Notes: generated by a model not told the origin, from the sequence alone. Counted from the stretch's first letter, positions 1 to 8,083 are shown. The stretch is DNA of 64,000 bases from an uncultured Algimonas sp. (GCA_964414555.1 CAYPWW010000003.1:59-64058); one strand, 5' to 3'. Translations and numbers: made by a program.

Positions 1-1
1 C

Positions 2-67
2 TCGATTGTTGAGAAGGTGTTTCAGGTGATCGGCCGTGATGTGGCGGATATGCAGGGTTTGGCGTGA
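2..67 (+). CDS. dxs: 3' end of a gene entering the window, probably 1-deoxy-D-xylulose-5-phosphate synthase
   Basis: Frame 2 reads SIVEKVFQVIGRDVADMQGLA* (TGA 65-67), resembling alphaproteobacterial Dxs C-termini. dxs-tlyA is a common gene order. Only 21 residues are visible. Confidence 0.5.
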   Translation, partial: SIVEKVFQVIGRDVADMQGLA

Positions 68-609
68 GGGCGCTCGCTTTATGTTTAGCGGCCACGCTAA
101 TGGTTGCTTGCGAAACATCCTTTGATGCCGATAAAAATTCTGAACCACATTCTAGTATTTTAACGCAAGATCGTCGGAGCTTGCTACTTTTGGAATTAGA
201 CCGTCAAAAGAAAATCTGGCAACTTAATCGGCCAGAGGGTTACAAATACACAGTTTTACGAAATTGCTTTTGTTTCCCAGCACCCCGCAGAGGGCCTAAT
301 GAAATTTCAGTTTTGAAGAACGATATTGTTCGACGCGTCTATGTCGGAACCTCCCAGGACGAATACCTCACTGGGTCGGACATACCTGAAAACCTGTTTG
401 GTGATTTTACTGTCGAAGATCTATTTAGCAGAGTGGAAGATCACTTAAACCCTGAGGCAAATACGTTCTACGGCAGAGAACAGACAGTTTACTTCACTGT
501 CGAATACGATCCAATTTGGGGTTTTCCAAAGGAAATTTCTTTCGATGTAGATCGCATTCTTGACGAGCAATACGTGCTGACCGCTGAACAATTTGTCGCC
601 ATGAATTAA
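64..609 (+). CDS. Putative lipoprotein, DUF6174-like
   Basis: Signal peptide with lipobox-like LMVA-C; YKYTVLRNCFC and GFPKEISFD motifs. The GTG start overlaps the upstream TGA. Sampled 60-nt lines are about 38-45% GC. Confidence 0.6.
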   Translation: MRALALCLAATLMVACETSFDADKNSEPHSSILTQDRRSLLLLELDRQKKIWQLNRPEGYKYTVLRNCFCFPAPRRGPNEISVLKNDIVRRVYVGTSQDEYLTGSDIPENLFGDFTVEDLFSRVEDHLNPEANTFYGREQTVYFTVEYDPIWGFPKEISFDVDRILDEQYVLTAEQFVAMN

Positions 610-612
610 ATT

Positions 613-1341
613 GTGCGCGCTGATCAATATCTGACCACCCACAAACACTACGCCTCGCGCGCGCGGGCGCAGGCGGCGATTAAGGCTGGGTTGGTGTCCG
701 TTGATGGACGCACATTAAAGAAGCCGTCCGAGAAGATTGCAGACGGCGCAACAGTCGTGGCGGGTCGAGAGCACCCTTGGGTGTCGCGCGGCGGGATGAA
801 ATTGGCGCATGCGCTGGACGTGTTCGCCGTCGATCCGACAGGACGCACGGCGCTGGATGTTGGGGCGTCAACGGGCGGATTTTCGCAAGTACTGGTAACG
901 CAGGGCGCGGCGAAAGTCTTTGCCGTGGATGTCGGTCATGGACAGCTGCATCCCGATCTGCACAGCGAGTCCCGGATTGTCTCGATGGAAGGGCAAGACG
1001 CGCGCACGCTCTCGCCGACGCAGCTTAACCCAACGCCAGACCTCGTGGTCTGTGACGCGAGCTTTATCTCCGCCATGAAAGTGCTGGAGGTGCCGCTGCG
1101 TTTGGCTGCGCCGGAGGCTGAGCTAATCACCCTGGTAAAACCGCAATTCGAAGTCGGGAAGGCGAACCTGCGGCGCGGTGGGCTTGTGGCCTCAGAGGAG
1201 CTGGGCCTGCGCGCGCTGGACAGCGTTCGTCACTGGGTCACGGCGCAAGGCTGGCGGGTCGAGGCGACGGAAGCCTCGCCGATCCTTGGCGGGTCGGGAA
1301 ATCGGGAATACCTGCTCTACGCGCGGCGTCGGGAGATGTAA
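613..1341 (+). CDS. tlyA: TlyA family rRNA methyltransferase (S4 + FtsJ-like)
   Basis: N-terminal S4 domain (MRAD...SRARAQAAI), WVSRGGMKL, LDVGASTGGF, VDVGHGQL, LVKPQFEVG, GGSGNREY. Confidence 0.95.
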   Translation: MRADQYLTTHKHYASRARAQAAIKAGLVSVDGRTLKKPSEKIADGATVVAGREHPWVSRGGMKLAHALDVFAVDPTGRTALDVGASTGGFSQVLVTQGAAKVFAVDVGHGQLHPDLHSESRIVSMEGQDARTLSPTQLNPTPDLVVCDASFISAMKVLEVPLRLAAPEAELITLVKPQFEVGKANLRRGGLVASEELGLRALDSVRHWVTAQGWRVEATEASPILGGSGNREYLLYARRREM

Positions 1342-1376
1342 AAAACCCCGCCGACTTGCGTGGGCGGGGCTGTTTT
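1340..1376. terminator. Bidirectional intrinsic terminator between convergent tlyA and the first glycine-zipper gene
   Basis: AAAAAA-CCCCGCC-loop-GGCGGGG followed by a T-rich tract. Confidence 0.8.
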
Positions 1377-1381
1377 AGGTG

Positions 1382-2029
1382 CTAGTGCCGGCGGCGATAG
1401 TTCCGGCGATTATGGCCGCGATTGCGGTTGCGGTAATGGCCGCGTGTCCGATATCCACGATTGTAATAGCCGCGATTGCCTGTGTTCAGGCTAATCGAAA
1501 TACCCGTGCGGGGGCGCACATAATAGGGCTGCGGATCATAGCGATAGAAGGGCTGTTGATAGGTCGTCGTGTAGGTCGTGTTGTACCCTTGATTATAATA
1601 GGGCTGGCTATAGCCGTATTGGCTGTGACCTTGCGGATAGTGATAGGTCGTATTGCCTTGGTAATAACCCCCCTGATTATAGCCGCCGCCATGATAATAC
1701 CCGGTCTGCTGATTGTAGTAGCCACCTTGGTTGTAGCCACCCTGATAATAGCCACGATTATTGGAACGCCCATCGCCTGCGATGGCTGCACCTGCGACAC
1801 CGCCGATGACTGCGCCGAGGACGGAGCCTTCGGTCCGCGCGCCGTTTCCGGCCAGTTGGCTTCCTGCAACACCGCCGATAACTGCGCCAATGCCGGCGCC
1901 GATCAGTTGATCTGAATTACCGCTTTGATGTTGGTGGTGATAACCCGTGTTGTGAGCCGAAGCAGCCACACTGAGGCTGGCTGTGACGGCGAAAGCAGCC
2001 ACGATTTTGAAAGGGGTCGAGTAGCGCAT
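1382..2029 (-). CDS. Secreted glycine-zipper 2TM protein with a G/Y/N/Q-rich region and an Arg-rich tail
   Basis: Sec signal ending AASA; LIGAGIGAVIGGVAG...RTEGSVLGAVIGGVAGAAI; low-complexity C-terminal half. Confidence 0.85.
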   Translation of the reverse strand: MRYSTPFKIVAAFAVTASLSVAASAHNTGYHHQHQSGNSDQLIGAGIGAVIGGVAGSQLAGNGARTEGSVLGAVIGGVAGAAIAGDGRSNNRGYYQGGYNQGGYYNQQTGYYHGGGYNQGGYYQGNTTYHYPQGHSQYGYSQPYYNQGYNTTYTTTYQQPFYRYDPQPYYVRPRTGISISLNTGNRGYYNRGYRTRGHYRNRNRGHNRRNYRRRH

Positions 2030-2169
2030 ATATGCGTCCTTTATTTAAGGTCCTACCGGCACCCGTCCCCTGGCACCGCGTCTCGAAACGATTAACGAGA
2101 CATAAAGACTATACACACACCGCGCGCATCTTGCAAAATCACAGCTGCGTAAGATGTCATTTGCGCAGC

Positions 2170-2206
2170 AAAAAGGGCGCGAGACCATAGTCCGCGCCCT
2201 GATTTT
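2170..2206 (-). terminator. Intrinsic terminator downstream of the second glycine-zipper gene
   Basis: AAAAA-GGGCGCG...CGCGCCCT hairpin; the A-run gives a U-tract on the minus strand. Confidence 0.75.
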
Positions 2207-2224
2207 ATTGCGATGTTCGTGCGT

Positions 2225-3742
2225 TTAGTGGTGAGACTTACAGCTCGATGCACTGTGGCGCGCACCCGGGATTTCGCGACCTTTATCGTCATACATGCGC
2301 TTGCCGTCGCCGTAGCAATAGCCTTCTTGGCTATGCACGACTGTGTCTGGAACGCTGTGACCCGACTCATAGGCCGTGTGTGTAGGTGCCAGTGTCACAC
2401 AGCTGCTGCTGTGGTGAGCCGTACCTGCATGACAGACGGGCTGTGCGGGTGTGTAGATCGGCGCACTTTCAATGATGCGGGCTGGCGCTTCACATGTGCC
2501 GTTGCCGAGATCGGTCGTTCCGACGGGGCAAGGCTGGTTCACGACGATTGGCGCGGCACCCATGACGGTACGGGCCGGTTCCTGACATGTGCCATTTCCG
2601 AGATCCGTTGTGCCAGCTGGGCAGGCTTGTGGGATCACGATTGGGGCGGCACCCATGACGGTACGAGCAGGTTCTTGGCATGTGCCATCACCCATATCCG
2701 TTGTGCCAGATGGGCAGGCTTGCGGGATCACGATTGGGGCCGCGCCAATGACTGTACGGGCAGGTTCTTGGCATGTGCCATTACCCATATCCGTGGTTCC
2801 AGCAGGACAGCTGGACGGAATAACAGTTGGTGCAGGGGCGTAGACCGTCTTGGCCGGCTCCATGCAGGTGCCATTGCCTTGATCCATTGTGCCTGCTGGG
2901 CAGGTGGAGGGGATCACGGTTGGGGCAGGTTCATACACTGTGCGCGGGGCGCTCATGCAGGTGCCGTCTGATTGCATGGTTGTCCCGGATGGGCAGGGCG
3001 CTTCAATCACGACGCGCGGGCGCTCAACGATTTGCGGCTGAACTGTCGTAACCTGCTGTGAGTAGCTGGTGACAGGGATAACGGGGCCGGAAACATAACC
3101 ACCGGATGCGTAAGTTGTCGGGGCATAAGCTGGGCCAGCTGGCAGACCTGCGCCATAACCATATCCGGCTGGTGCATAGCCAGCGTTGCCGTATCCGGCC
3201 GTCGTATATCCACCAACGGGACCATAGGCAGGGGCGTAACCGCCGCCGGCATATCCACCGCCAGCATAGCCGCCACCCGTGTATCCGCCGTAGCGACCAT
3301 TAGAGCGACCGTTCCGGTTTGCGAGGGCATAGCCTGCGACACCGCCGAGCACGGCGCCAAGGGCTGTGCCTTCTTCGCGCACGCCGGAGCCTGCGAGGTT
3401 GGAGCCGATCACGCCGCCAAGGCCTGCGCCAATGGCTGTGCCAGCGAGGTTGCGACCGTTAAAGCCGGGGTTGAACTGTCCAGCGTAAGGGTTGCCGTAA
3501 TAGTTAGACCGCGAGTTACCATAGGCTGCGCCAGCTAAACCACCGACGACAGCGCCGATCGCTGTGCCTTCGTCGCGATTGCCTGCGCCCGCGATATTGG
3601 AACCAATAGCGCCGCCAATACCGGCACCAACAGTCCCGCCAAGGACGGTGTTATTATCAAATCCAGGGAAAAACTGCGCTGAGGCTGTCGCTGGAAGACA
3701 GGCGATGGCCGCAATTGCGGCGGTCGAGAGTAAAAGTTTCAT
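2225..3742 (-). CDS. Secreted protein with two glycine-zipper 2TM units and six 31-aa Cys-containing repeats (505 aa)
   Basis: Start moved to ATG 3742 (AGGAG RBS; signal peptide MKLLLSTAA...ASA). Two zipper units, a G/Y/A/P linker, CPxGTxDxGNGTC repeats and a His/Cys-rich C-terminus. Confidence 0.85.
   Translation of the reverse strand: MKLLLSTAAIAAIACLPATASAQFFPGFDNNTVLGGTVGAGIGGAIGSNIAGAGNRDEGTAIGAVVGGLAGAAYGNSRSNYYGNPYAGQFNPGFNGRNLAGTAIGAGLGGVIGSNLAGSGVREEGTALGAVLGGVAGYALANRNGRSNGRYGGYTGGGYAGGGYAGGGYAPAYGPVGGYTTAGYGNAGYAPAGYGYGAGLPAGPAYAPTTYASGGYVSGPVIPVTSYSQQVTTVQPQIVERPRVVIEAPCPSGTTMQSDGTCMSAPRTVYEPAPTVIPSTCPAGTMDQGNGTCMEPAKTVYAPAPTVIPSSCPAGTTDMGNGTCQEPARTVIGAAPIVIPQACPSGTTDMGDGTCQEPARTVMGAAPIVIPQACPAGTTDLGNGTCQEPARTVMGAAPIVVNQPCPVGTTDLGNGTCEAPARIIESAPIYTPAQPVCHAGTAHHSSSCVTLAPTHTAYESGHSVPDTVVHSQEGYCYGDGKRMYDDKGREIPGARHSASSCKSHH
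2435..2995 (-). repeat. Six tandem coding repeats of about 93 bp (31 aa)
   Basis: Protein units such as CPAGTTDMGNGTCQEPARTVIGAAPIVIPQA. The central copies are near-identical at DNA level (gcatgtgcca...tccgt). Confidence 0.9.
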
Positions 3743-3916
3743 GCGTGCGGCTCCTTGAAGCAGACCTATTAAGGCGGCTCCACGAACCACCCACCATTTT
3801 CGGTTTGGCTTGCTTGGTGCAAGTCTCACGCCGAAATCACGTTTCTTATAGCATTTTTTTCCCGCGAAACCGAAGGCGCTTCGCCTGAGACGGGAGTCGC
3901 GGGTATAAAATAAGGT

Positions 3917-3944
3917 AAAACCCGACCTCCGCAAGGAGGCCGGG
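3917..3944 (-). terminator. Intrinsic terminator downstream of the third glycine-zipper gene
   Basis: AAAA-CCCGACCTCC-GCAA-GGAGGCCGGG. Confidence 0.75.
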
Positions 3945-3978
3945 TCACACATAGAGTTTTCACATGGGGACGGAAAAC

Positions 3979-4737
3979 TTAGTGATCAGAGTAACAAAGG
4001 TTCCGCGAGTTGCCGTGGTAATGGCCGCGACGGTATCCGTCATTATAGCCGTAACCTTGGTTGCGATTGTAGCCGGAGTTCCGGTCACGTTGGCGGTCGG
4101 TGAACTTCTTGATCCGACGACGCTCGCGCTTCAGTTCTTTCAGCTTGCGACCATTGCGTTCCAAACGACGCTCTAGGCGCGGGTTGTAGTGTCGCGAATA
4201 GCGAATCTCACGCTTCAGCTGATCGCCCCTGCGGCGCACATCTTCGATCTGGCGATCAATCTGGTACAGCGGATCATTATAACGGTTGTTATAGCCGTAA
4301 GAGCTGTTCCCGCGATTGCGCCCATGGGCATGACCGTGGCCACGTCCAGGGTGGCCGACCGTCTGCACGTGCGGGCTGGTATAAACCGTCCGCGTTTGTG
4401 TGCGCGTCGGATAGTGACGCGTGGTCTGGCCTTGCGTCGTGTAGACGCGGTTCCGATCGTAACGCTTCTCGCAATCCGTCGCACCGTCACCGATGGCTGC
4501 GCCGGCGATCCCGCCGATAATCGCGCCTAAGACGGCACCTTCTGTTCTGTCGCCACGTCCGGCGATACCTTCGCCAATGACTGTGCCGAGCGAGCCGCCG
4601 ACGACACCACCCAGGATGGCGTTTTCGGTATCCGAGCAGTTGTTACGGTAATCTGCCGCAGAGGCGCTGGCGGGGAAAACGAGAGTTGCCGCTGCCAGTG
4701 TGACAGCAGCGAGAGCGGTTTTGACAGTCTTGGTCAT
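3979..4737 (-). CDS. Secreted glycine-zipper 2TM protein with a basic coiled-coil C-terminal region
   Basis: Start moved to ATG 4737 (CAGGAG RBS). Signal peptide ending ASA; ILGGVVGGSLG...RTEGAVLGAIIGGIAGAAIG. Confidence 0.85.
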   Translation of the reverse strand: MTKTVKTALAAVTLAAATLVFPASASAADYRNNCSDTENAILGGVVGGSLGTVIGEGIAGRGDRTEGAVLGAIIGGIAGAAIGDGATDCEKRYDRNRVYTTQGQTTRHYPTRTQTRTVYTSPHVQTVGHPGRGHGHAHGRNRGNSSYGYNNRYNDPLYQIDRQIEDVRRRGDQLKREIRYSRHYNPRLERRLERNGRKLKELKRERRRIKKFTDRQRDRNSGYNRNQGYGYNDGYRRGHYHGNSRNLCYSDH

Positions 4738-4860
4738 GGTAGTCTCCTGTTTGGGCAACGACGTTGGGAAGATGCCCAGGTCGATGATTCCTTTTTAGGA
4801 GACGGCGTTTGAACTCACTCTGATTTTGGAATTCATACTCGGTTCAAGAAACCTTAACTC

Positions 4861-5940
4861 TTAGACATGTTGCGCAAGAAAGCGCTCAACCTCATCCAAA
4901 GCGTCCAGCGCTTCGGGGATATGGTCGTCGAAAATCTGCCAGACATGGGGCAGACCCCCATCCCACAGCTGAAGTGTAACAGGTGAACCGGCGGCTTCCG
5001 CTTTGCCAGCAAAGCGGATCGCATCATCGCGCAACATCTCATCCGCGCTTGCCTGAACCAGCGTCGGCGGCAGATTTGAAAGATCATCGAAAACGGGCGA
5101 TTGATCCGGGTGAGAGGGGCTCATGCCGTAATGTTTTCGCATCATAGGCAACAGCATGGCACGCGGGGCCTTCACGATCGGACGCAGTAGAGGCTCCAGC
5201 ATAATATCGCGGTCCAGATTATCCTTCATAGATGGGCTAGACAGCGTTGCATCTGTTGTCGGGGAGAATGCGACGATGGCATCGGCTTGACGCGCGGCGT
5301 TACCTCGCGCCCAATTGCCCAACATCAGCGCAAGGTTTCCGCCCGCACTGTCACCGGCCAGCGCAAGTTTCTTTGGCGCGCTTTCTCTGTCGGGCCCATG
5401 ATCGCAAATCCAGTCATAGGCGGCCCGTGCATCTTCAATCGTATTGCGCCGCGTGTTTTCCGGCATCAGACGGTAATTCGGGGCAAACACCGCCATGCCT
5501 GTTCGTCGCGCCAGCTGCGCTGTTAGGGGACGGTGAGAAATATCAGAGCCGACGGTGAACGCCCCGCCGTGCAGATAGAGCAGACGGCGACCCGCATCAT
5601 ATCCCGGCGCCAGCGTCCAACGACCATGTATCTCTCGACCATCGACGGTGATTGTCGCGTCGCGAAATTCGATATCGGCGTAATCCCGCGCGAGACCAGC
5701 TTGGTCAAAGCGTTCGCGCTTGCCTTCCCAGCCGGATGTGCTGTTGCCCGCAACAGGGTCCGCGCCGAACATCTCTTTCAGATATTCATTGAGCTTCGAC
5801 AGACCTTCTGAGGGCTGCGCCCGCGCAAAGGGCGTCACATCGCGATCATATTGCGACAGGTCTTCGCCAGAGAGCCGACGCACATAGGCATAAAAGCCAA
5901 TCGCGCCGAGCGCGGGAACCGTGAGGAGAGGGAGGATCAT
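4861..5940 (-). CDS. Alpha/beta hydrolase, HSL-like esterase/lipase with N-terminal anchor
   Basis: YLHGGAF oxyanion motif, GDSAGG nucleophile elbow, ...HVWQ. Start ATG 5940 follows an AAGGAA RBS. Confidence 0.9.
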   Translation of the reverse strand: MILPLLTVPALGAIGFYAYVRRLSGEDLSQYDRDVTPFARAQPSEGLSKLNEYLKEMFGADPVAGNSTSGWEGKRERFDQAGLARDYADIEFRDATITVDGREIHGRWTLAPGYDAGRRLLYLHGGAFTVGSDISHRPLTAQLARRTGMAVFAPNYRLMPENTRRNTIEDARAAYDWICDHGPDRESAPKKLALAGDSAGGNLALMLGNWARGNAARQADAIVAFSPTTDATLSSPSMKDNLDRDIMLEPLLRPIVKAPRAMLLPMMRKHYGMSPSHPDQSPVFDDLSNLPPTLVQASADEMLRDDAIRFAGKAEAAGSPVTLQLWDGGLPHVWQIFDDHIPEALDALDEVERFLAQHV

Positions 5941-5950
5941 AACGTTTTCC

Positions 5951-7027
5951 TTATTGTGTTCCCACCTGCCCACGATGGCGGAGCATGTGATCGGCGAGGG
6001 TGACGGCCATCATGGCTTCTGCCACCGGTACGCCGCGGATCCCGACGCAGGGATCGTGGCGGCCTTTGGTTTGGACGTCGATCTCTTGGCCCTTGGCATC
6101 AATGGAGGGAACTTTTGTTAGCATGGAGCTGGTCGGTTTGATCGCCAGTCGCGCCGTGATCGTGTCGCCGTTGGAAATCCCACCGAGAATACCGCCCGAA
6201 TTGTTGCTTTGAAACGCGGCTTGGCCATCCTTCATGCGGATGGCGTCAGCGTTCTGGGTGCCGGACCAGCGGGCGGCGGCAAAGCCTGCGCCGATCTCCA
6301 CGCCCTTGGCAGCGTTGATCGACATCAGACCCATCGCCAGATCACTGTCCAGCTTGCCATAGACGGGTGCGCCCCAGCCTGCGGGGACCCCGGTGGCTTC
6401 GACATGGATGACCGCGCCGACGGAATTGCCGTCTTTACGCACGCCATCGAGATAGGCTTCCCAGTTTTTCGCGGCCGTCGCGTCGGGGCACCAGAACGGG
6501 TTTTGCGTGACCGTGTTCCAGTCCCAATTCTCGCAATCAATATCCTGATCGCCGATGGAGACAACACAGCCTCGGATTTGAATATCGTCACCAAGAATTT
6601 TTCGCGCAATCGCACCGGCTGCGACTCGGTTCGCGGTTTCGCGCGCGCTGGAGCGTCCGCCGCCACGATAATCGCGGATGCCGTATTTCGCATCATAGGT
6701 CAGATCCGCATGGCCGGGGCGGTAACGGTCCTTGATTTCAGAATAATCGCGCGAGCGTTGGTCTGTATTCTCAATTAGGAGAGAGATCGGCGTGCCGGTC
6801 GTCTGGCCTTCAAACACACCAGAGAGAATTTTCACGGCGTCTGGTTCACGGCGCTGGGTCACGAAACGCGATGTGCCCGGTTTGCGCTGATCCAAATAAG
6901 TCTGGATGTCGGTTTCCGTCAGCGGAATGCGCGGCGGACAGCCATCGACGACACAGCCAATGGCCGGGCCGTGGCTTTCGCCCCAGGTCGTGAAGCGGAA
7001 AAGATGTCCGAAAGTATTATGTGACAT
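5951..7027 (-). CDS. aroC: Chorismate synthase
   Basis: MSHNTFG...[42 protein letters not shown]. Confidence 0.98.
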
Positions 7028-7076
7028 GCCCCGCGTTTAGCGGGGACGCGCGCGCAAGGCTATTGGCGATTTGCCG

Positions 7077-7292
7077 CTAAAACGCGCGGGCTCCGGCGCG
7101 GACGCGCATGACTTGCGGCGCAGGCGGGATCAGCGTCTCAAACGCATCCTTGGCTTGTAGGAAAGCAGTGACATTGCCGTAAGGACTGTCGGGGTGGAAG
7201 AACTTCGCTTTCTTGCGCCACGCCCCACGGATATCGGCTTCGCGCGCGGACATAGATAGGCCGAGTGTCAAAAGTGCGTGTTGGCGTGTCAT
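7077..7292 (-). CDS. Small free-standing J-domain protein
   Basis: IRGAWRKKAKFFHPD helix II plus HPD motif. Start is ATG 7292, or 7316. Confidence 0.7.
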   Translation of the reverse strand: MTRQHALLTLGLSMSAREADIRGAWRKKAKFFHPDSPYGNVTAFLQAKDAFETLIPPAPQVMRVRAGARAF

Positions 7293-7426
7293 GGTGGCCC
7301 CATTCGTCAATCGCACGTGAAGGATCGTGCTTAATTTTTTCCCAATAAAGCGCTAAGGGTTTAACACCGCCTCAACAGGCATGGTTAACAATGCCTTTCA
7401 CGCGAAATTTTAAGCGAAAACTTGCT

Positions 7427-8083
7427 ATGAACACACCTGTCATCCCGCCCACACCGACGCGCGCAGAGTATTTGGATAACGGCCCGCGCGACATGTCATG
7501 GCTGGACGCTGATGCGCCAATCCCGCTGTTCGAAGACTGGATCGCGACAGCGGGCAAGACAGAGCCCAATGACCCCAATGCGATGAGTGTCGCAACCGTC
7601 GATGGTGCGGGTCAACCAGATGTACGGATCTTGCTGCTGAAGGGGCTGAGCGATGCGGGCTTTGTCTTTTACACCAATAGTGAAAGCGCCAAAGGGCGAC
7701 AGCTGATCGAAACCGGGCAGGCGGCGCTGTGCTTTCACTGGAAAACGCAAAAGCGCCAAGTCCGTGTCCGCGGCTCCGTCGAGCAGGTGTCGGATGCAGA
7801 ATCAGATGCTTATTTCGCGGAACGCGCGCGGGGCTCGCGTATCGGGGCATGGGCGTCGGATCAGTCGCGCCCTGTCACATCTCGTGAAGCCATGATCGAT
7901 GATGTTGAGGCGGTTGAGGCGCGGTTCGAAGGCAAAGATGTCCCGCGCCCGGACCATTGGTTCGGCTGGCGGGTGCGTCCCCGTGCCATCGAATTCTGGC
8001 AAGATGGCGCCTTTCGTGTGCATGACCGTATTCTTTTTACCAAAGACGGCGACGACTGGGCGAAGACTCGCCTTTATCCCTAA
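7427..8083 (+). CDS. pdxH: Pyridoxine/pyridoxamine 5'-phosphate oxidase
   Basis: PNAMSVAT, RILLLKG, FYTNSESAKG, RQVRVRG, RPDHWFG, IEFWQDGAFRVHDR, RLYP. Confidence 0.97.
   Translation: MNTPVIPPTPTRAEYLDNGPRDMSWLDADAPIPLFEDWIATAGKTEPNDPNAMSVATVDGAGQPDVRILLLKGLSDAGFVFYTNSESAKGRQLIETGQAALCFHWKTQKRQVRVRGSVEQVSDAESDAYFAERARGSRIGAWASDQSRPVTSREAMIDDVEAVEARFEGKDVPRPDHWFGWRVRPRAIEFWQDGAFRVHDRILFTKDGDDWAKTRLYP

What the first reader, a model, noticed from the sequence alone, without database searches (positions are those of the whole stretch)
1382..4737. Triad of secreted glycine-zipper paralogues with three different cargo domains
Seen: three adjacent minus-strand genes, each with its own RBS and terminator and a Sec-type signal without a lipobox. 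All share a G-x-R-[TDE]-E-G-x-x-[ILV]-G-A zipper hairpin, and the middle gene has two. The C-termini differ completely: G/Y/N/Q plus Arg tail; Cys repeats; basic coiled coil. Known: glycine-zipper 2TM domains oligomerise in or at membranes (17-kDa antigen/SlyB-like proteins). Inference: a modular envelope system in which a common zipper anchor displays interchangeable surface, matrix or adhesion modules, possibly as hetero-oligomers. I do not recognise a described system with this layout.
Basis: partly seen in the sequence, partly recalled or inferred. Interest (0 to 1): 0.7.

Follow-up and report, generated by a model that had tools for sequence, protein, structure and literature searches.

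The report
Conserved trio of exported glycine-zipper proteins
Three neighbouring genes of a marine stalked bacterium (family Robiginitomaculaceae) encode related exported proteins that share a membrane-seeking glycine-zipper hairpin but carry different tails; the trio is kept together across the whole family, its function is untested, and it most likely helps hold the cell envelope together rather than displaying adhesins on the surface.

Summary
Window 1382-4737 (minus strand) carries three separately terminated genes: P1 (215 aa), P2 (505 aa) and P3 (252 aa). Each has a type-I signal peptide, no lipobox, and a PF05433 glycine-zipper hairpin (two in P2).

The strict turn motif occurs four times in 64 kb, only in these genes.

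The order abhydrolase > P3 > P2 > P1 > tlyA recurs in 45 of 73 species-level loci. These are from Litorimonas, Algimonas, Hellea, Robiginitomaculum and related MAGs. The refutation test "not syntenic" therefore fails.

The tails differ less than claimed. All follow one plan:
- a zipper;
- a Tyr/Gly-rich low-complexity spacer;
- an optional module (a basic helical hairpin in P3, 0-10 cystine beta-hairpins in P2);
- a basic/His tail that usually ends in ...C..H or ...H.

Modules have been shuffled between paralogues.

Nothing supports surface display. A helical hairpin puts both ends on the periplasmic side.

Hetero-oligomers remain untested.

My best reading: non-lipidated SlyB/YiaD-like membrane-anchored periplasmic tether or stabiliser proteins.

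P3 alone has a strongly conserved 37-bp operator-like element, so the three genes are not obviously co-regulated.

This is a lineage-specific variant of a known domain family, of moderate interest.

The parts
1382..2029 (-). P1 gene (215 aa). Signal peptide aa 1-25 (nt 1955-2029). The mature N-terminus begins with His (HNTGYHHQHQ). Zipper hairpin aa 42-86 (nt 1772-1906). Y/G/Q/N-rich region aa 87-170 (nt 1520-1771). Arg-rich tail aa 171-215, pI 12, ending RRRH (nt 1385-1519).
   Evidence: 139 homologues. The mature N-terminal H[DN][NT]G[YF]xHxH motif is present in 43/47 orthologues.
1339..1377 (-). P1 intrinsic terminator (GC-rich hairpin followed by U6).
   Evidence: -21.1 kcal/mol, z = -4.69.
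2225..3742 (-). P2 gene (505 aa). Signal peptide aa 1-22. Zipper hairpin 1 aa 30-77 (nt 3512-3655). Conserved linker GNPYAGQFNPGFNG. Zipper hairpin 2 aa 96-147 (nt 3302-3457). G/Y/A/P-rich disordered region aa 148-245 (nt 3008-3301). Seven Cys-x11-12-Cys beta-hairpin modules aa 246-450 (nt 2393-3007), which include a 93-nt tandem repeat. C-terminal Cys-loop knob YCYGDGKRMYDDKGREI...CKSHH (nt 2228-2392).
   Evidence: AlphaFold gives two helical hairpins at pLDDT about 77-82 and beta-hairpins at 70-80. The mature Cys count is even in 48/48 orthologues.
2165..2211 (-). P2 intrinsic terminator.
   Evidence: -23.6 kcal/mol, z = -3.81.
3979..4737 (-). P3 gene (252 aa). Signal peptide aa 1-27. Zipper hairpin bracketed by Cys34 and Cys89 (nt 4471-4638). 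T/R/G/Y/H-rich spacer. Basic antiparallel helical hairpin aa 156-222 (nt 4072-4272). Tail RRGHYHGNSRNLCYSDH.
   Evidence: The helical hairpin has pLDDT of about 95 or more. The Cys-zipper-Cys arrangement is present in 48/48 orthologues.
3915..3950 (-). P3 intrinsic terminator (12-bp GC stem followed by a U-run).
   Evidence: -31.4 kcal/mol, z = -6.32.
4810..4846 (-). Conserved 37-bp element upstream of P3: TGAAC-N6-TGAAT-N8-TCAG-N5-GTTCA. It has four half-sites: two 11-bp-spaced direct repeats arranged as an inverted pair. A conserved CTAxA, resembling a -10 element, follows 10-12 nt further on.
   Evidence: It is unique in the window. There are 49 matches in 736 kb of related loci, 48 of them directly upstream of a P3 orthologue. 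A relaxed version of the pattern (TGAAC...GTTCA) matches upstream of P2 in 0/48 loci and upstream of P1 in 1/48.

Best explanation
The region holds three independently transcribed paralogous genes. They form a core, lineage-specific gene trio of the Robiginitomaculaceae (order Maricaulales, stalked marine alphaproteobacteria). Each product is exported by Sec, cleaved by signal peptidase I and not lipidated.

Shown:
- The glycine-zipper helix-turn-helix (two in P2) is homologous to the outer-membrane transmembrane hairpin of SlyB.
- It is at least as hydrophobic as that hairpin.
- In P3 it is bracketed by an invariant Cys pair. The disulfide staple this pair suggests is inferred, not shown.

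Inferred:
- The hairpin inserts into, and oligomerises in, an envelope membrane. The periplasmic face of the outer membrane is most likely, as for SlyB, YfgH and YiaD.
- Everything downstream stays in the periplasm. That comprises a Tyr/Gly-rich flexible spacer of evolvable length, an optional module (the basic helical hairpin in P3, the string of cystine-stapled beta-hairpins in P2), and a cationic His/Cys-terminated end.
- The end binds an anionic or metal-bridged partner such as peptidoglycan, phospholipid head groups or another envelope protein.

On this reading the trio is a set of non-lipidated SlyB/YiaD-like anchors that stabilise or tether the envelope, each reaching a different distance or partner. 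The genes are neighbours because they arose by tandem duplication, and gene conversion or module exchange between them continues. Whether they co-assemble is open.
For: Export and absence of a lipobox:
- Window sequence.
- No lipobox-like motif in any of 47-48 unique orthologues per family; AxA-like site in all.

Zipper homology:
- PF05433 hits.
- SlyB (7ojf/7ojg) is the only PDB sequence match: E = 0.02 over SlyB residues 58-105.
- Foldseek aligns 52 columns at 2.6 A and 40% identity (not significant overall).
- Partial NCBIfam hits cover only the zipper part of the YiaD and PA1041 'peptidoglycan-binding anchor lipoprotein' models.
- Zipper helices have Kyte-Doolittle means of 1.1-1.9, against 1.24-1.46 for SlyB.
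- The Cys34/Cys89 bracket is present in 48/48 P3 orthologues, as expected for an oxidising compartment and a hairpin fold.

Structure:
- P2 hairpins have pLDDT about 80. Residues 147-244 are disordered. Small beta-hairpins lie at each Cys pair.
- The P3 helical hairpin 156-222 has pLDDT above 95.

Common plan and cationic ends.

Variable spacer: 0-10 Cys modules per P2 orthologue, while the double zipper and terminal knob are retained.

Conservation: the trio is found in 45 of 73 species-level loci across four named genera and related MAGs. It persists where flanking genes change.

Precedents: SlyB and YfgH act as outer-membrane stabilisers.
Against: - There is no experimental or expression evidence. 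No RNA runs were found.
- All characterised outer-membrane zipper proteins (SlyB, YfgH, OsmB, YiaD) are lipoproteins carried by Lol. How a non-lipidated zipper would reach and enter the outer membrane is unknown, so inner-membrane or soluble periplasmic localisation cannot be excluded.
- The P3 zipper was modelled at low confidence (pLDDT about 40).
- No peptidoglycan-binding or other known ligand-binding domain was detected.
- Caulobacter OsrP, the nearest described non-lipoprotein PF05433 protein, gave no phenotype under sucrose stress when deleted.
- Adjacency may reflect duplication history only.
Confidence: 0.45

Rival explanations
1. Stress-induced periplasmic protectants. On this view the proteins are OsrP/OsmB-like hydrophilic, low-complexity proteins. 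They associate only peripherally or transiently with membranes, buffering the periplasm or membranes during osmotic, ionic or desiccation stress. They would not be permanent structural tethers.
For: - OsrP of Caulobacter has the same signal-peptidase-I plus PF05433 design and is induced by hyperosmotic stress.
- Large disordered G/Y/N/Q/T regions are present.
- P3 has a dedicated, highly conserved operator-like element, which suggests conditional expression.
Against: - No EcfG/sigmaT-type promoter (GGAAC-N15-18-CGTT) was found upstream of any of the three families: 0/48, 0/48 and 1/48.
- Conserved structured modules (the helical hairpin, cystine hairpins and terminal knob) look like binding parts rather than bulk hydrophilins.
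- OsrP carries its zipper at the C-terminal end, whereas these carry it at the N-terminus.
Confidence: 0.2
2. The zipper anchors the proteins in the outer membrane and the C-terminal modules are displayed on the cell surface as adhesion, matrix or holdfast-related modules, possibly as hetero-oligomers.
For: - The Tyr/Gly/Asn/Gln-rich and Cys-repeat regions resemble adhesive or amyloid-prone sequences.
- The hosts are attached, stalked, often epiphytic bacteria, judging from the organism names.
- Caulobacter CdzC/D glycine-zipper proteins do sit on the cell surface.
- The founding member of the domain family is called a 'surface antigen'.
Against: - A helical hairpin returns the chain to the side it entered from, so the tails should be periplasmic.
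- No secretion system, usher, CsgG/HfaB-like pore or T1SS lies in the conserved neighbourhood, which consists of tlyA, an abhydrolase, aroC and dxs.
- Cdz proteins use a T1SS leader, not a Sec signal.
- No adhesin domains were detected.
Confidence: 0.12
3. Membrane-tethered periplasmic metal-binding proteins. On this view the His-first mature N-terminus of P1 and the shared HxH...C...H-COOH ends bind Zn, Cu or Ni. This would serve buffering, delivery or metal-dependent cross-linking.
For: - The mature P1 N-terminus H[DN][NT]G[YF]xHxH is present in 43/47 orthologues.
- A C-terminal His is present in 63-74% of orthologues of all three families.
- The motif RGHYHG..C...H-COOH is shared by P3, an unlinked fourth paralogue family and some P1 orthologues.
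- The window P3 contains GHPGRGHGHAHG.
Against: - No match to any known metal-binding family.
- The motifs are short and sit in basic, low-complexity sequence where His and Arg are frequent anyway.
- The window P1 has no Cys and ends simply in RRRH.
- No metal transport or resistance genes lie nearby.
Confidence: 0.1
4. Glycine-zipper pore-forming toxins or contact-dependent bacteriocins, like Cdz or the T6SS/T7SS zipper effectors.
For: Glycine zippers mediate membrane insertion in CdzC/D and in several effectors. P1 is aggregation-prone in composition.
Against: - No immunity gene, T1SS or other secretion genes are adjacent.
- The proteins have Sec signals and are 190-480 aa when mature, against about 85 aa for Cdz.
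- The locus is a vertically inherited core locus with housekeeping flanks, not an island.
- GC content is like that of the surroundings.
Confidence: 0.03

Closest known systems
SlyB (E. coli/Salmonella PhoPQ-regulated outer-membrane lipoprotein; PDB 7ojf/7ojg) and its relative YfgH
   Same: The PF05433 two-helix glycine zipper is shared. SlyB is the only solved structure matched by sequence. Hairpin hydrophobicity is similar. SlyB oligomerises into rings in the outer membrane and stabilises it. That is the model for how the zipper here would work.
   Different: There is no lipobox or lipid anchor in any orthologue. There is no periplasmic beta-sandwich domain; disordered Y/G-rich spacers, a helical hairpin or cystine hairpins stand in its place. 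P2 has two zippers in tandem. The turn motif R-[TDE]-E-G is lineage-specific.
YiaD / PA1041-type 'glycine zipper + OmpA-like' peptidoglycan-binding anchor lipoproteins
   Same: The design principle is the same: an N-terminal signal, a glycine zipper as outer-membrane anchor, and a periplasmic C-terminal part that contacts the cell wall. Partial NCBIfam hits cover the zipper part.
   Different: Scores are far below the cutoffs (23-31 bits against 175-250). There is no OmpA-like domain and no lipobox.
OsrP (CCNA_00882) of Caulobacter crescentus
   Same: It is an alphaproteobacterial, Sec-exported, signal-peptidase-I-cleaved, non-lipoprotein PF05433 protein of unknown function, predicted to be periplasmic.
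   Different: OsrP has its zipper near the C-terminus (residues 224-268 of 332). It is sigmaT- and GsrN-controlled and is a single gene. No sigmaT-type promoter is found here. Sequence relationship outside the zipper was not tested.
CdzC/CdzD contact-dependent glycine-zipper bacteriocins of Caulobacter
   Same: Several adjacent small glycine-zipper proteins in a member of the Caulobacterales, cell-envelope associated and aggregation-prone.
   Different: Cdz proteins are about 85 aa and have T1SS leaders. They need cdzAB and the immunity gene cdzI, and are often island-borne. None of these features is present here.
Braun's lipoprotein Lpp (functional analogy only)
   Same: P3 combines a membrane anchor, a spacer and a coiled-coil-type helical module with a conserved C-terminal residue. 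Formally this resembles an outer-membrane-to-wall strut. That alphaproteobacteria lack Lpp is my own background knowledge, not a tool result.
   Different: There is no lipid anchor. P3 has an antiparallel hairpin rather than a trimeric parallel coil. It ends in His rather than Lys. No evidence of attachment to peptidoglycan exists.

Membership tests
Pfam PF05433 (Rick_17kDa_Anti, glycine zipper 2TM domain) | HMM match at or above the gathering score (24.2 bits) | tested here: met
   P1 scores 25.7 bits and P2 31.4 bits in two stretches. P3 scores 22.1 bits, just below the cutoff, but many P3 orthologues carry a precomputed PF05433 hit.
SlyB-like outer-membrane lipoproteins | N-terminal lipobox Cys (lipidation, Lol transport) | tested here: not met
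   There is no [LVI][ASTVI][GAS]C motif in any of 47-48 orthologues per family, and all have AxA sites.
SlyB-like outer-membrane lipoproteins | Glycine-zipper helical hairpin | tested here: met
   (SlyB residues 58-105, E = 0.02).
SlyB-like outer-membrane lipoproteins | About 10-kDa periplasmic beta-sandwich domain after the zipper | tested here: not met
   The P2 and P3 models show disorder, a helical hairpin or isolated beta-hairpins instead. P1 was not modelled, but its tail is 27% Tyr and 19% Gly low-complexity sequence.
SlyB-like outer-membrane lipoproteins | Ring-shaped oligomers in the outer membrane | not testable with these tools
   No multimer prediction or experiment was available.
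YiaD / PA1041 glycine-zipper OmpA-like anchors (NCBIfam NF053611, NF053612) | Full-length model match with a C-terminal OmpA-like peptidoglycan-binding domain | tested here: not met
   Scores are 23.6-31.4 bits against a cutoff of 175, and 18 against 250. Only profile positions of about 5-87 (signal plus zipper) align. There is no PF00691 hit.
OsrP-type general-stress glycine-zipper proteins (Caulobacter) | Type-I signal peptide plus PF05433, non-lipoprotein | tested here: met
OsrP-type general-stress glycine-zipper proteins (Caulobacter) | EcfG/sigmaT promoter GGAAC-N16-17-CGTT | tested here: not met
   0/48 (P3), 0/48 (P2) and 1/48 (P1) upstream regions match.
OsrP-type general-stress glycine-zipper proteins (Caulobacter) | Sequence homology to OsrP outside the zipper | not tested
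Named hits do not include Caulobacter.
Cdz contact-dependent glycine-zipper bacteriocins | Small (5-10 kDa) toxins with a T1SS leader, adjacent cdzAB-type T1SS and an immunity gene | tested here: not met
   The proteins have Sec signals and are 190-483 aa when mature. Their neighbours are tlyA, an abhydrolase, aroC and dxs.
BA14K (PF07886), considered for the P2 C-terminal Cys loop | Pfam HMM match | tested here: not met
   No hit at E up to 10 for six P2-type C-terminal fragments, nor for full-length P2 at E up to 1.

The most novel reading that the evidence does not exclude
The three proteins, with the unlinked fourth paralogue, co-assemble through their near-interchangeable zippers into non-lipidated SlyB-like rings or patches in the outer membrane. 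Their graded spacers and His/Cys-terminated cationic ends reach the wall or inner membrane at different depths. This would be a previously undescribed Lpp-independent, possibly metal-bridged, envelope-tethering system specific to stalked marine Robiginitomaculaceae. One member (P3) would be switched by a dedicated regulator acting at the conserved 37-bp operator.
Probability: 0.1. Interest if true: 0.65.

Novelty: new variant of a known kind. Interest (0 to 1): 0.38.

Why it matters
Glycine-zipper (PF05433) proteins have only recently been understood, and only for E. coli lipoproteins. SlyB and YfgH form rings that protect the outer membrane under stress. One of those papers states that the role of glycine-zipper proteins outside E. 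coli remains relatively unexplored.

This locus offers a clean natural experiment. It is a family-wide, vertically inherited set of non-lipidated zipper proteins in which the same anchor is combined with spacers and end-modules that have been swapped and resized during evolution.

If the anchors do insert into the outer membrane without lipidation, that raises a targeting question: how does an alpha-helical hairpin reach the outer membrane without Lol? It would also suggest how alphaproteobacteria that lack Lpp couple their envelope layers.

If the proteins are only periplasmic stress proteins, the finding is ordinary.

Tried and rejected
- BA14K-like reading of the P2 C-terminal Cys loop (C..KRYD..G..I...C): no Pfam hit even at E = 10. 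Rejected.
- General-stress (EcfG/sigmaT), sigma54, sigma32 and CtrA motifs upstream of the three genes: sigma54 and sigma32 absent; EcfG in at most 1 of 48 upstream regions; the CtrA box matched 1, 3 and 10 of 48 (P3, P2, P1) with no chance expectation computed. None taken as a regulator.
- An RpoE-like reading of TGAAC-N18-TCAGA upstream of P3 was considered. The four-half-site symmetry and the conserved CTAxA 10-12 nt downstream fit an activator or operator site centred near -43 better. Undecided.
- An SD-sequestering helix in the P3 leader was predicted from 10 close relatives, with a few compensatory pairs. It vanished when 37 sequences were used, giving no consensus structure. The 'anti-SD' may instead be the -10 element. 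Not claimed.
- P2 leader: no convincing conserved structure.
- Rfam on window 1-8000: no match at E up to 1.
- RNA evidence: no RNA runs list any of the three genes. Only seawater metagenome DNA contigs hold the locus.
- Fold searches of both models against the PDB: nothing at E up to 0.001. P3 gives only generic helical hairpins. For P2, SlyB appears at rank 50.
- Exhaustive HMMER search with the P2 Cys-repeat half: only 40 hits in 1.84 billion representatives. The CPxGT..DGxC unit also occurs in unrelated proteins, including one with serine-protease-like motifs and proteins with CPSGYTKSG-type repeats. It is a small recurrent disulfide hairpin, not a diagnostic domain.
- The 575-aa version of P2 starting at 3952 was rejected because it runs through the P3 terminator.
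- Antisense ORFs (1379-1915 +, 2213-2971 +) are by-products of the G/A-rich coding strand.

Full report
**What is there**

Window 1382-4737 carries three minus-strand genes:
- P1, 1382-2029, 215 aa.
- P2, 2225-3742, 505 aa.
- P3, 3979-4737, 252 aa.

They lie between tlyA (613-1341, +) and an abhydrolase_3 gene (4861-5973, -), followed by aroC.

Each gene has a Shine-Dalgarno sequence 6-8 nt before its ATG. Each is followed by a stable hairpin plus U-run: -21.1, -23.6 and -31.4 kcal/mol, z = -4.7, -3.8 and -6.3, with none of 200 shuffles as stable. Intergenic gaps are 236 and 195 nt. The genes therefore look monocistronic.

The longer P2 ORF from 3952 crosses the P3 terminator and is rejected. 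GC content is like that of the flanks.

**Check of the observation**

All three products start with a classical signal peptide ending A-S-A. None has a conserved lipobox. In 47-48 unique orthologues of each family there were no lipobox-like motifs, and AxA-like sites were found throughout.

Pfam finds PF05433 (glycine zipper 2TM) in P1 (25.7 bits) and twice in P2 (31.4 bits). P3 scores just below threshold (22.1 against 24.2).

The four zipper domains are 43-58% identical.

**Relatives and synteny**

The families are small and restricted. Word-indexed searches of 5.8 billion proteins gave 96 (P2), 109 (P3) and 139 (P1) hits. Named hits come only from Hellea, Litorimonas, Robiginitomaculum, Fretibacter and 'Maricaulaceae' MAGs. 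One Sphingopyxis hit matches the zipper alone. Litorimonas and Robiginitomaculum belong to Robiginitomaculaceae, order Maricaulales.

A scan of one genome per GTDB species returned 73 loci. Of these, 45 contain the complete order P3 > P2 > P1. They are usually flanked by the abhydrolase and aroC on one side and tlyA on the other, with gaps of about 100-570 nt. Three loci fetched through protein look-ups show the same order.

Most of the remaining loci are truncated contigs or unlinked paralogues. The trio persists in Robiginitomaculum-type genomes where the abhydrolase is absent or a 2-kb insertion separates P2 from P1. Two Robiginitomaculum MAGs appear to have only P3 and P1.

**Anatomy of the products**

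P1:
- The mature protein begins with His, in a conserved H[DN][NT]G[YF]xHxHQ motif (43/47 orthologues).
- One zipper follows.
- Then comes an 84-aa region with 27% Tyr, 19% Gly and 15% Gln.
- It ends with a 45-aa tail of pI 12 ending RRRH.

P2:
- Two zippers are joined by the invariant linker GNPYAGQFNPGFNG.
- A 100-aa G/Y/A/P-rich segment is predicted to be disordered.
- Seven C-x11-12-C units are each modelled as a small beta-hairpin (pLDDT 70-80).
- The terminal loop is YCY....KRYD..G.EI....C..HH.
- Across orthologues the number of CPxGT...C units ranges from 0 to 10. The double zipper and the terminal loop are kept, and the mature Cys count is even in 48/48.
- The middle is therefore an evolvable spacer, consistent with the 93-nt tandem repeat.

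P3:
- The zipper is bracketed by Cys34 and Cys89 (48/48 orthologues). This arrangement fits a disulfide-stapled hairpin in an oxidising compartment.
- A variable T/R/G/Y/H spacer follows.
- A very confidently modelled basic antiparallel helical hairpin spans residues 156-222 (pLDDT of about 95 or more).
- The end is either RRGHYHG.SRNLCYSDH or, in a short variant, a basic stretch ending in Tyr, Trp or Arg.

**The tails are not 'completely different'**

All three families share one plan: zipper, then Tyr/Gly-rich spacer, then optional module, then a cationic His-rich end. The last residue is His in 35/47, 30/48 and 32/48 orthologues.

An unlinked fourth paralogue family in the same genomes has a Cys-bracketed zipper and the same HYHG..C...H-COOH end.

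Modules have moved between paralogues:
- An Algimonas P1 orthologue ends in RRGHYHGRTICYSTH.
- In Hellea-type genomes the P3 zipper is 67-85% identical to the P1 zipper next door, against 50% in the window.
- This indicates gene conversion or domain replacement. P3 zippers are correspondingly the least conserved between species: 53% mean, against 70-77% for the others.

**How it most likely works**

The only solved structure matched by sequence is SlyB: 7ojf/7ojg, E = 0.02, residues 58-105, its transmembrane hairpin. The zipper helices here are at least as hydrophobic as SlyB's.

SlyB and YfgH are outer-membrane glycine-zipper lipoproteins that oligomerise into rings and stabilise the membrane under stress. 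YiaD and PA1041-type proteins couple the same zipper to a periplasmic wall-binding domain, and only their zipper parts match here.

From these precedents I infer the following:
- The hairpins are membrane-inserting, self-associating anchors.
- Because a hairpin returns the chain to the side it entered from, the spacers, modules and cationic ends remain periplasmic.
- There they could contact peptidoglycan, anionic lipids, other proteins or metal ions.

These steps are inference. Nothing here shows localisation, oligomers or ligands. The lack of a lipid anchor leaves the route to the outer membrane unexplained.

**Rivals**

- Periplasmic stress protectants like Caulobacter OsrP. OsrP is also a signal-peptidase-I, non-lipoprotein PF05433 protein, it is sigmaT-dependent, and its deletion had no phenotype under sucrose stress. 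No sigmaT-type promoter is present here.
This is disfavoured by topology and by the absence of any secretion partner in the conserved neighbourhood.
- Metal binding through the His/Cys motifs. This is suggestive but matches no known family.
- Cdz-like bacteriocins. These are excluded by size, signal type and the missing T1SS and immunity genes.

**Regulation**

No RNA data could be found and Rfam has no match.

Upstream of P3 only, a 37-bp element TGAAC-N6-TGAAT-N8-TCAG-N5-GTTCA lies about 70-75 nt before the ATG. It is unique in the window (4810-4846). It occurs 49 times in 736 kb of related loci, 48 of them directly before a P3 orthologue. Tested as the relaxed pattern TGAAC-N20-40-GTTCA, it is absent before P2 and matches once (1/48) before P1.

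A conserved CTAxA follows 10-12 nt later. If that is the -10 element, the element is centred near -43, like a class II activator site. An ECF-type promoter reading is also possible.

The three genes thus have separate signals, and at least one has its own.

**Novelty and verdict**

The proteins belong to a known domain family, so this is not a new kind of system. The following features are not described in the literature searched:
- the non-lipidated design;
- the tandem double zipper;
- the specific tails;
- module exchange between paralogues;
- family-wide conservation of the trio.

I class it as a new variant of a known kind, of moderate interest.

Noticed in passing
window 4810-4846 (-), and upstream of P3 orthologues in loci L002-L065: A 37-bp element TGAAC-N6-TGAAT-N8-TCAG-N5-GTTCA with four half-sites lies about 70-75 nt before the P3 start codon. 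A conserved CTAxA follows 10-12 nt later. It occurs 49 times in 736 kb of loci, 48 of them directly upstream of P3, and a relaxed version (TGAAC...GTTCA) matches upstream of P2 in 0/48 loci and upstream of P1 in 1/48. It is a candidate activator or operator site, or an ECF-type promoter, for an unknown regulator.
   Followed up: partly
loci L058 and L066-L077 (for example L067:5001-5720): An unlinked fourth paralogue family exists in the same genomes. It has a signal peptide, a Cys-bracketed zipper, a T/Y/S/Q-rich region with conserved VTYSNHPVY..YGAGAV..GTTYxTGTVxYP, and the same C-terminal HYHG..C...H-COOH motif as P3.
   Followed up: partly
L002, L024, L025, L031, L054 and others (Hellea-type loci), compared with window 1772-1906 and 4471-4638: In Hellea-type genomes the P3 zipper is 67-85% identical to the neighbouring P1 zipper, against 50% in the window. 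This suggests gene conversion or zipper replacement between the paralogues.
   Followed up: partly
L038:5834-6466 (Algimonas ampicilliniresistens): A P1-type protein (HNTSYQHYHQ N-terminus, YYQQPRT repeats) ends with the P3-type knob RRGHYHGRTICYSTH. This shows shuffling of the C-terminal module between paralogues.
   Followed up: no
window 2393-3007 (-); P2 orthologues in all loci: The number of CPxGT...C cystine-hairpin units in P2 ranges from 0 to 10 between species. In the window part of this region is a 93-nt tandem repeat (3.3 copies, 81% matches). The region behaves as a length-variable spacer.
   Followed up: partly
proteins P0345, P0335, P0346, P0331: The same C-P-x-G-T/Y-x4-6-G-x-C mini-unit is repeated many times in unrelated proteins. 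One is a 1312-aa protein with serine-protease-like motifs at its C-terminal end. Others carry long runs of CPSGYTKSG-type repeats. Their source organisms are not known. Zipper-less secreted proteins P0332, P0333 and P0340 also carry the unit.
   Followed up: no
window 3743-3978 (P3-P2 intergenic) and orthologous regions: Conserved blocks lie upstream of P2 in Litorimonas/Algimonas: (A/T)TCCCGTC..AGGCGAA, ATG(C/T)TA, TTCGGC..AGA.TTGCA and ATGGTGG. No convincing conserved RNA structure was found, and there is no Rfam match.
   Followed up: partly
window 4738-4812 (P3 leader): In 10 close relatives RNAalifold predicts an inner hairpin and an outer helix pairing CUCCU with the Shine-Dalgarno sequence, with a few compensatory changes. 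With 37 sequences no consensus structure is found. The 'anti-SD' may instead be the -10 element.
   Followed up: partly
window 64-609 (+): This ORF has a lipoprotein-type signal (LMVAC). The first 500 bases of the window have a markedly lower GC content (0.45) than what follows (0.55-0.63). In Hellea a different small lipoprotein gene sits between P1 and tlyA.
   Followed up: no
one search compared: P1 and P3 have 99%-identical database entries (P0206 on a 1.04-Mb contig, and P0097). The best P2 hit is only 54-61% identical.
   Followed up: no
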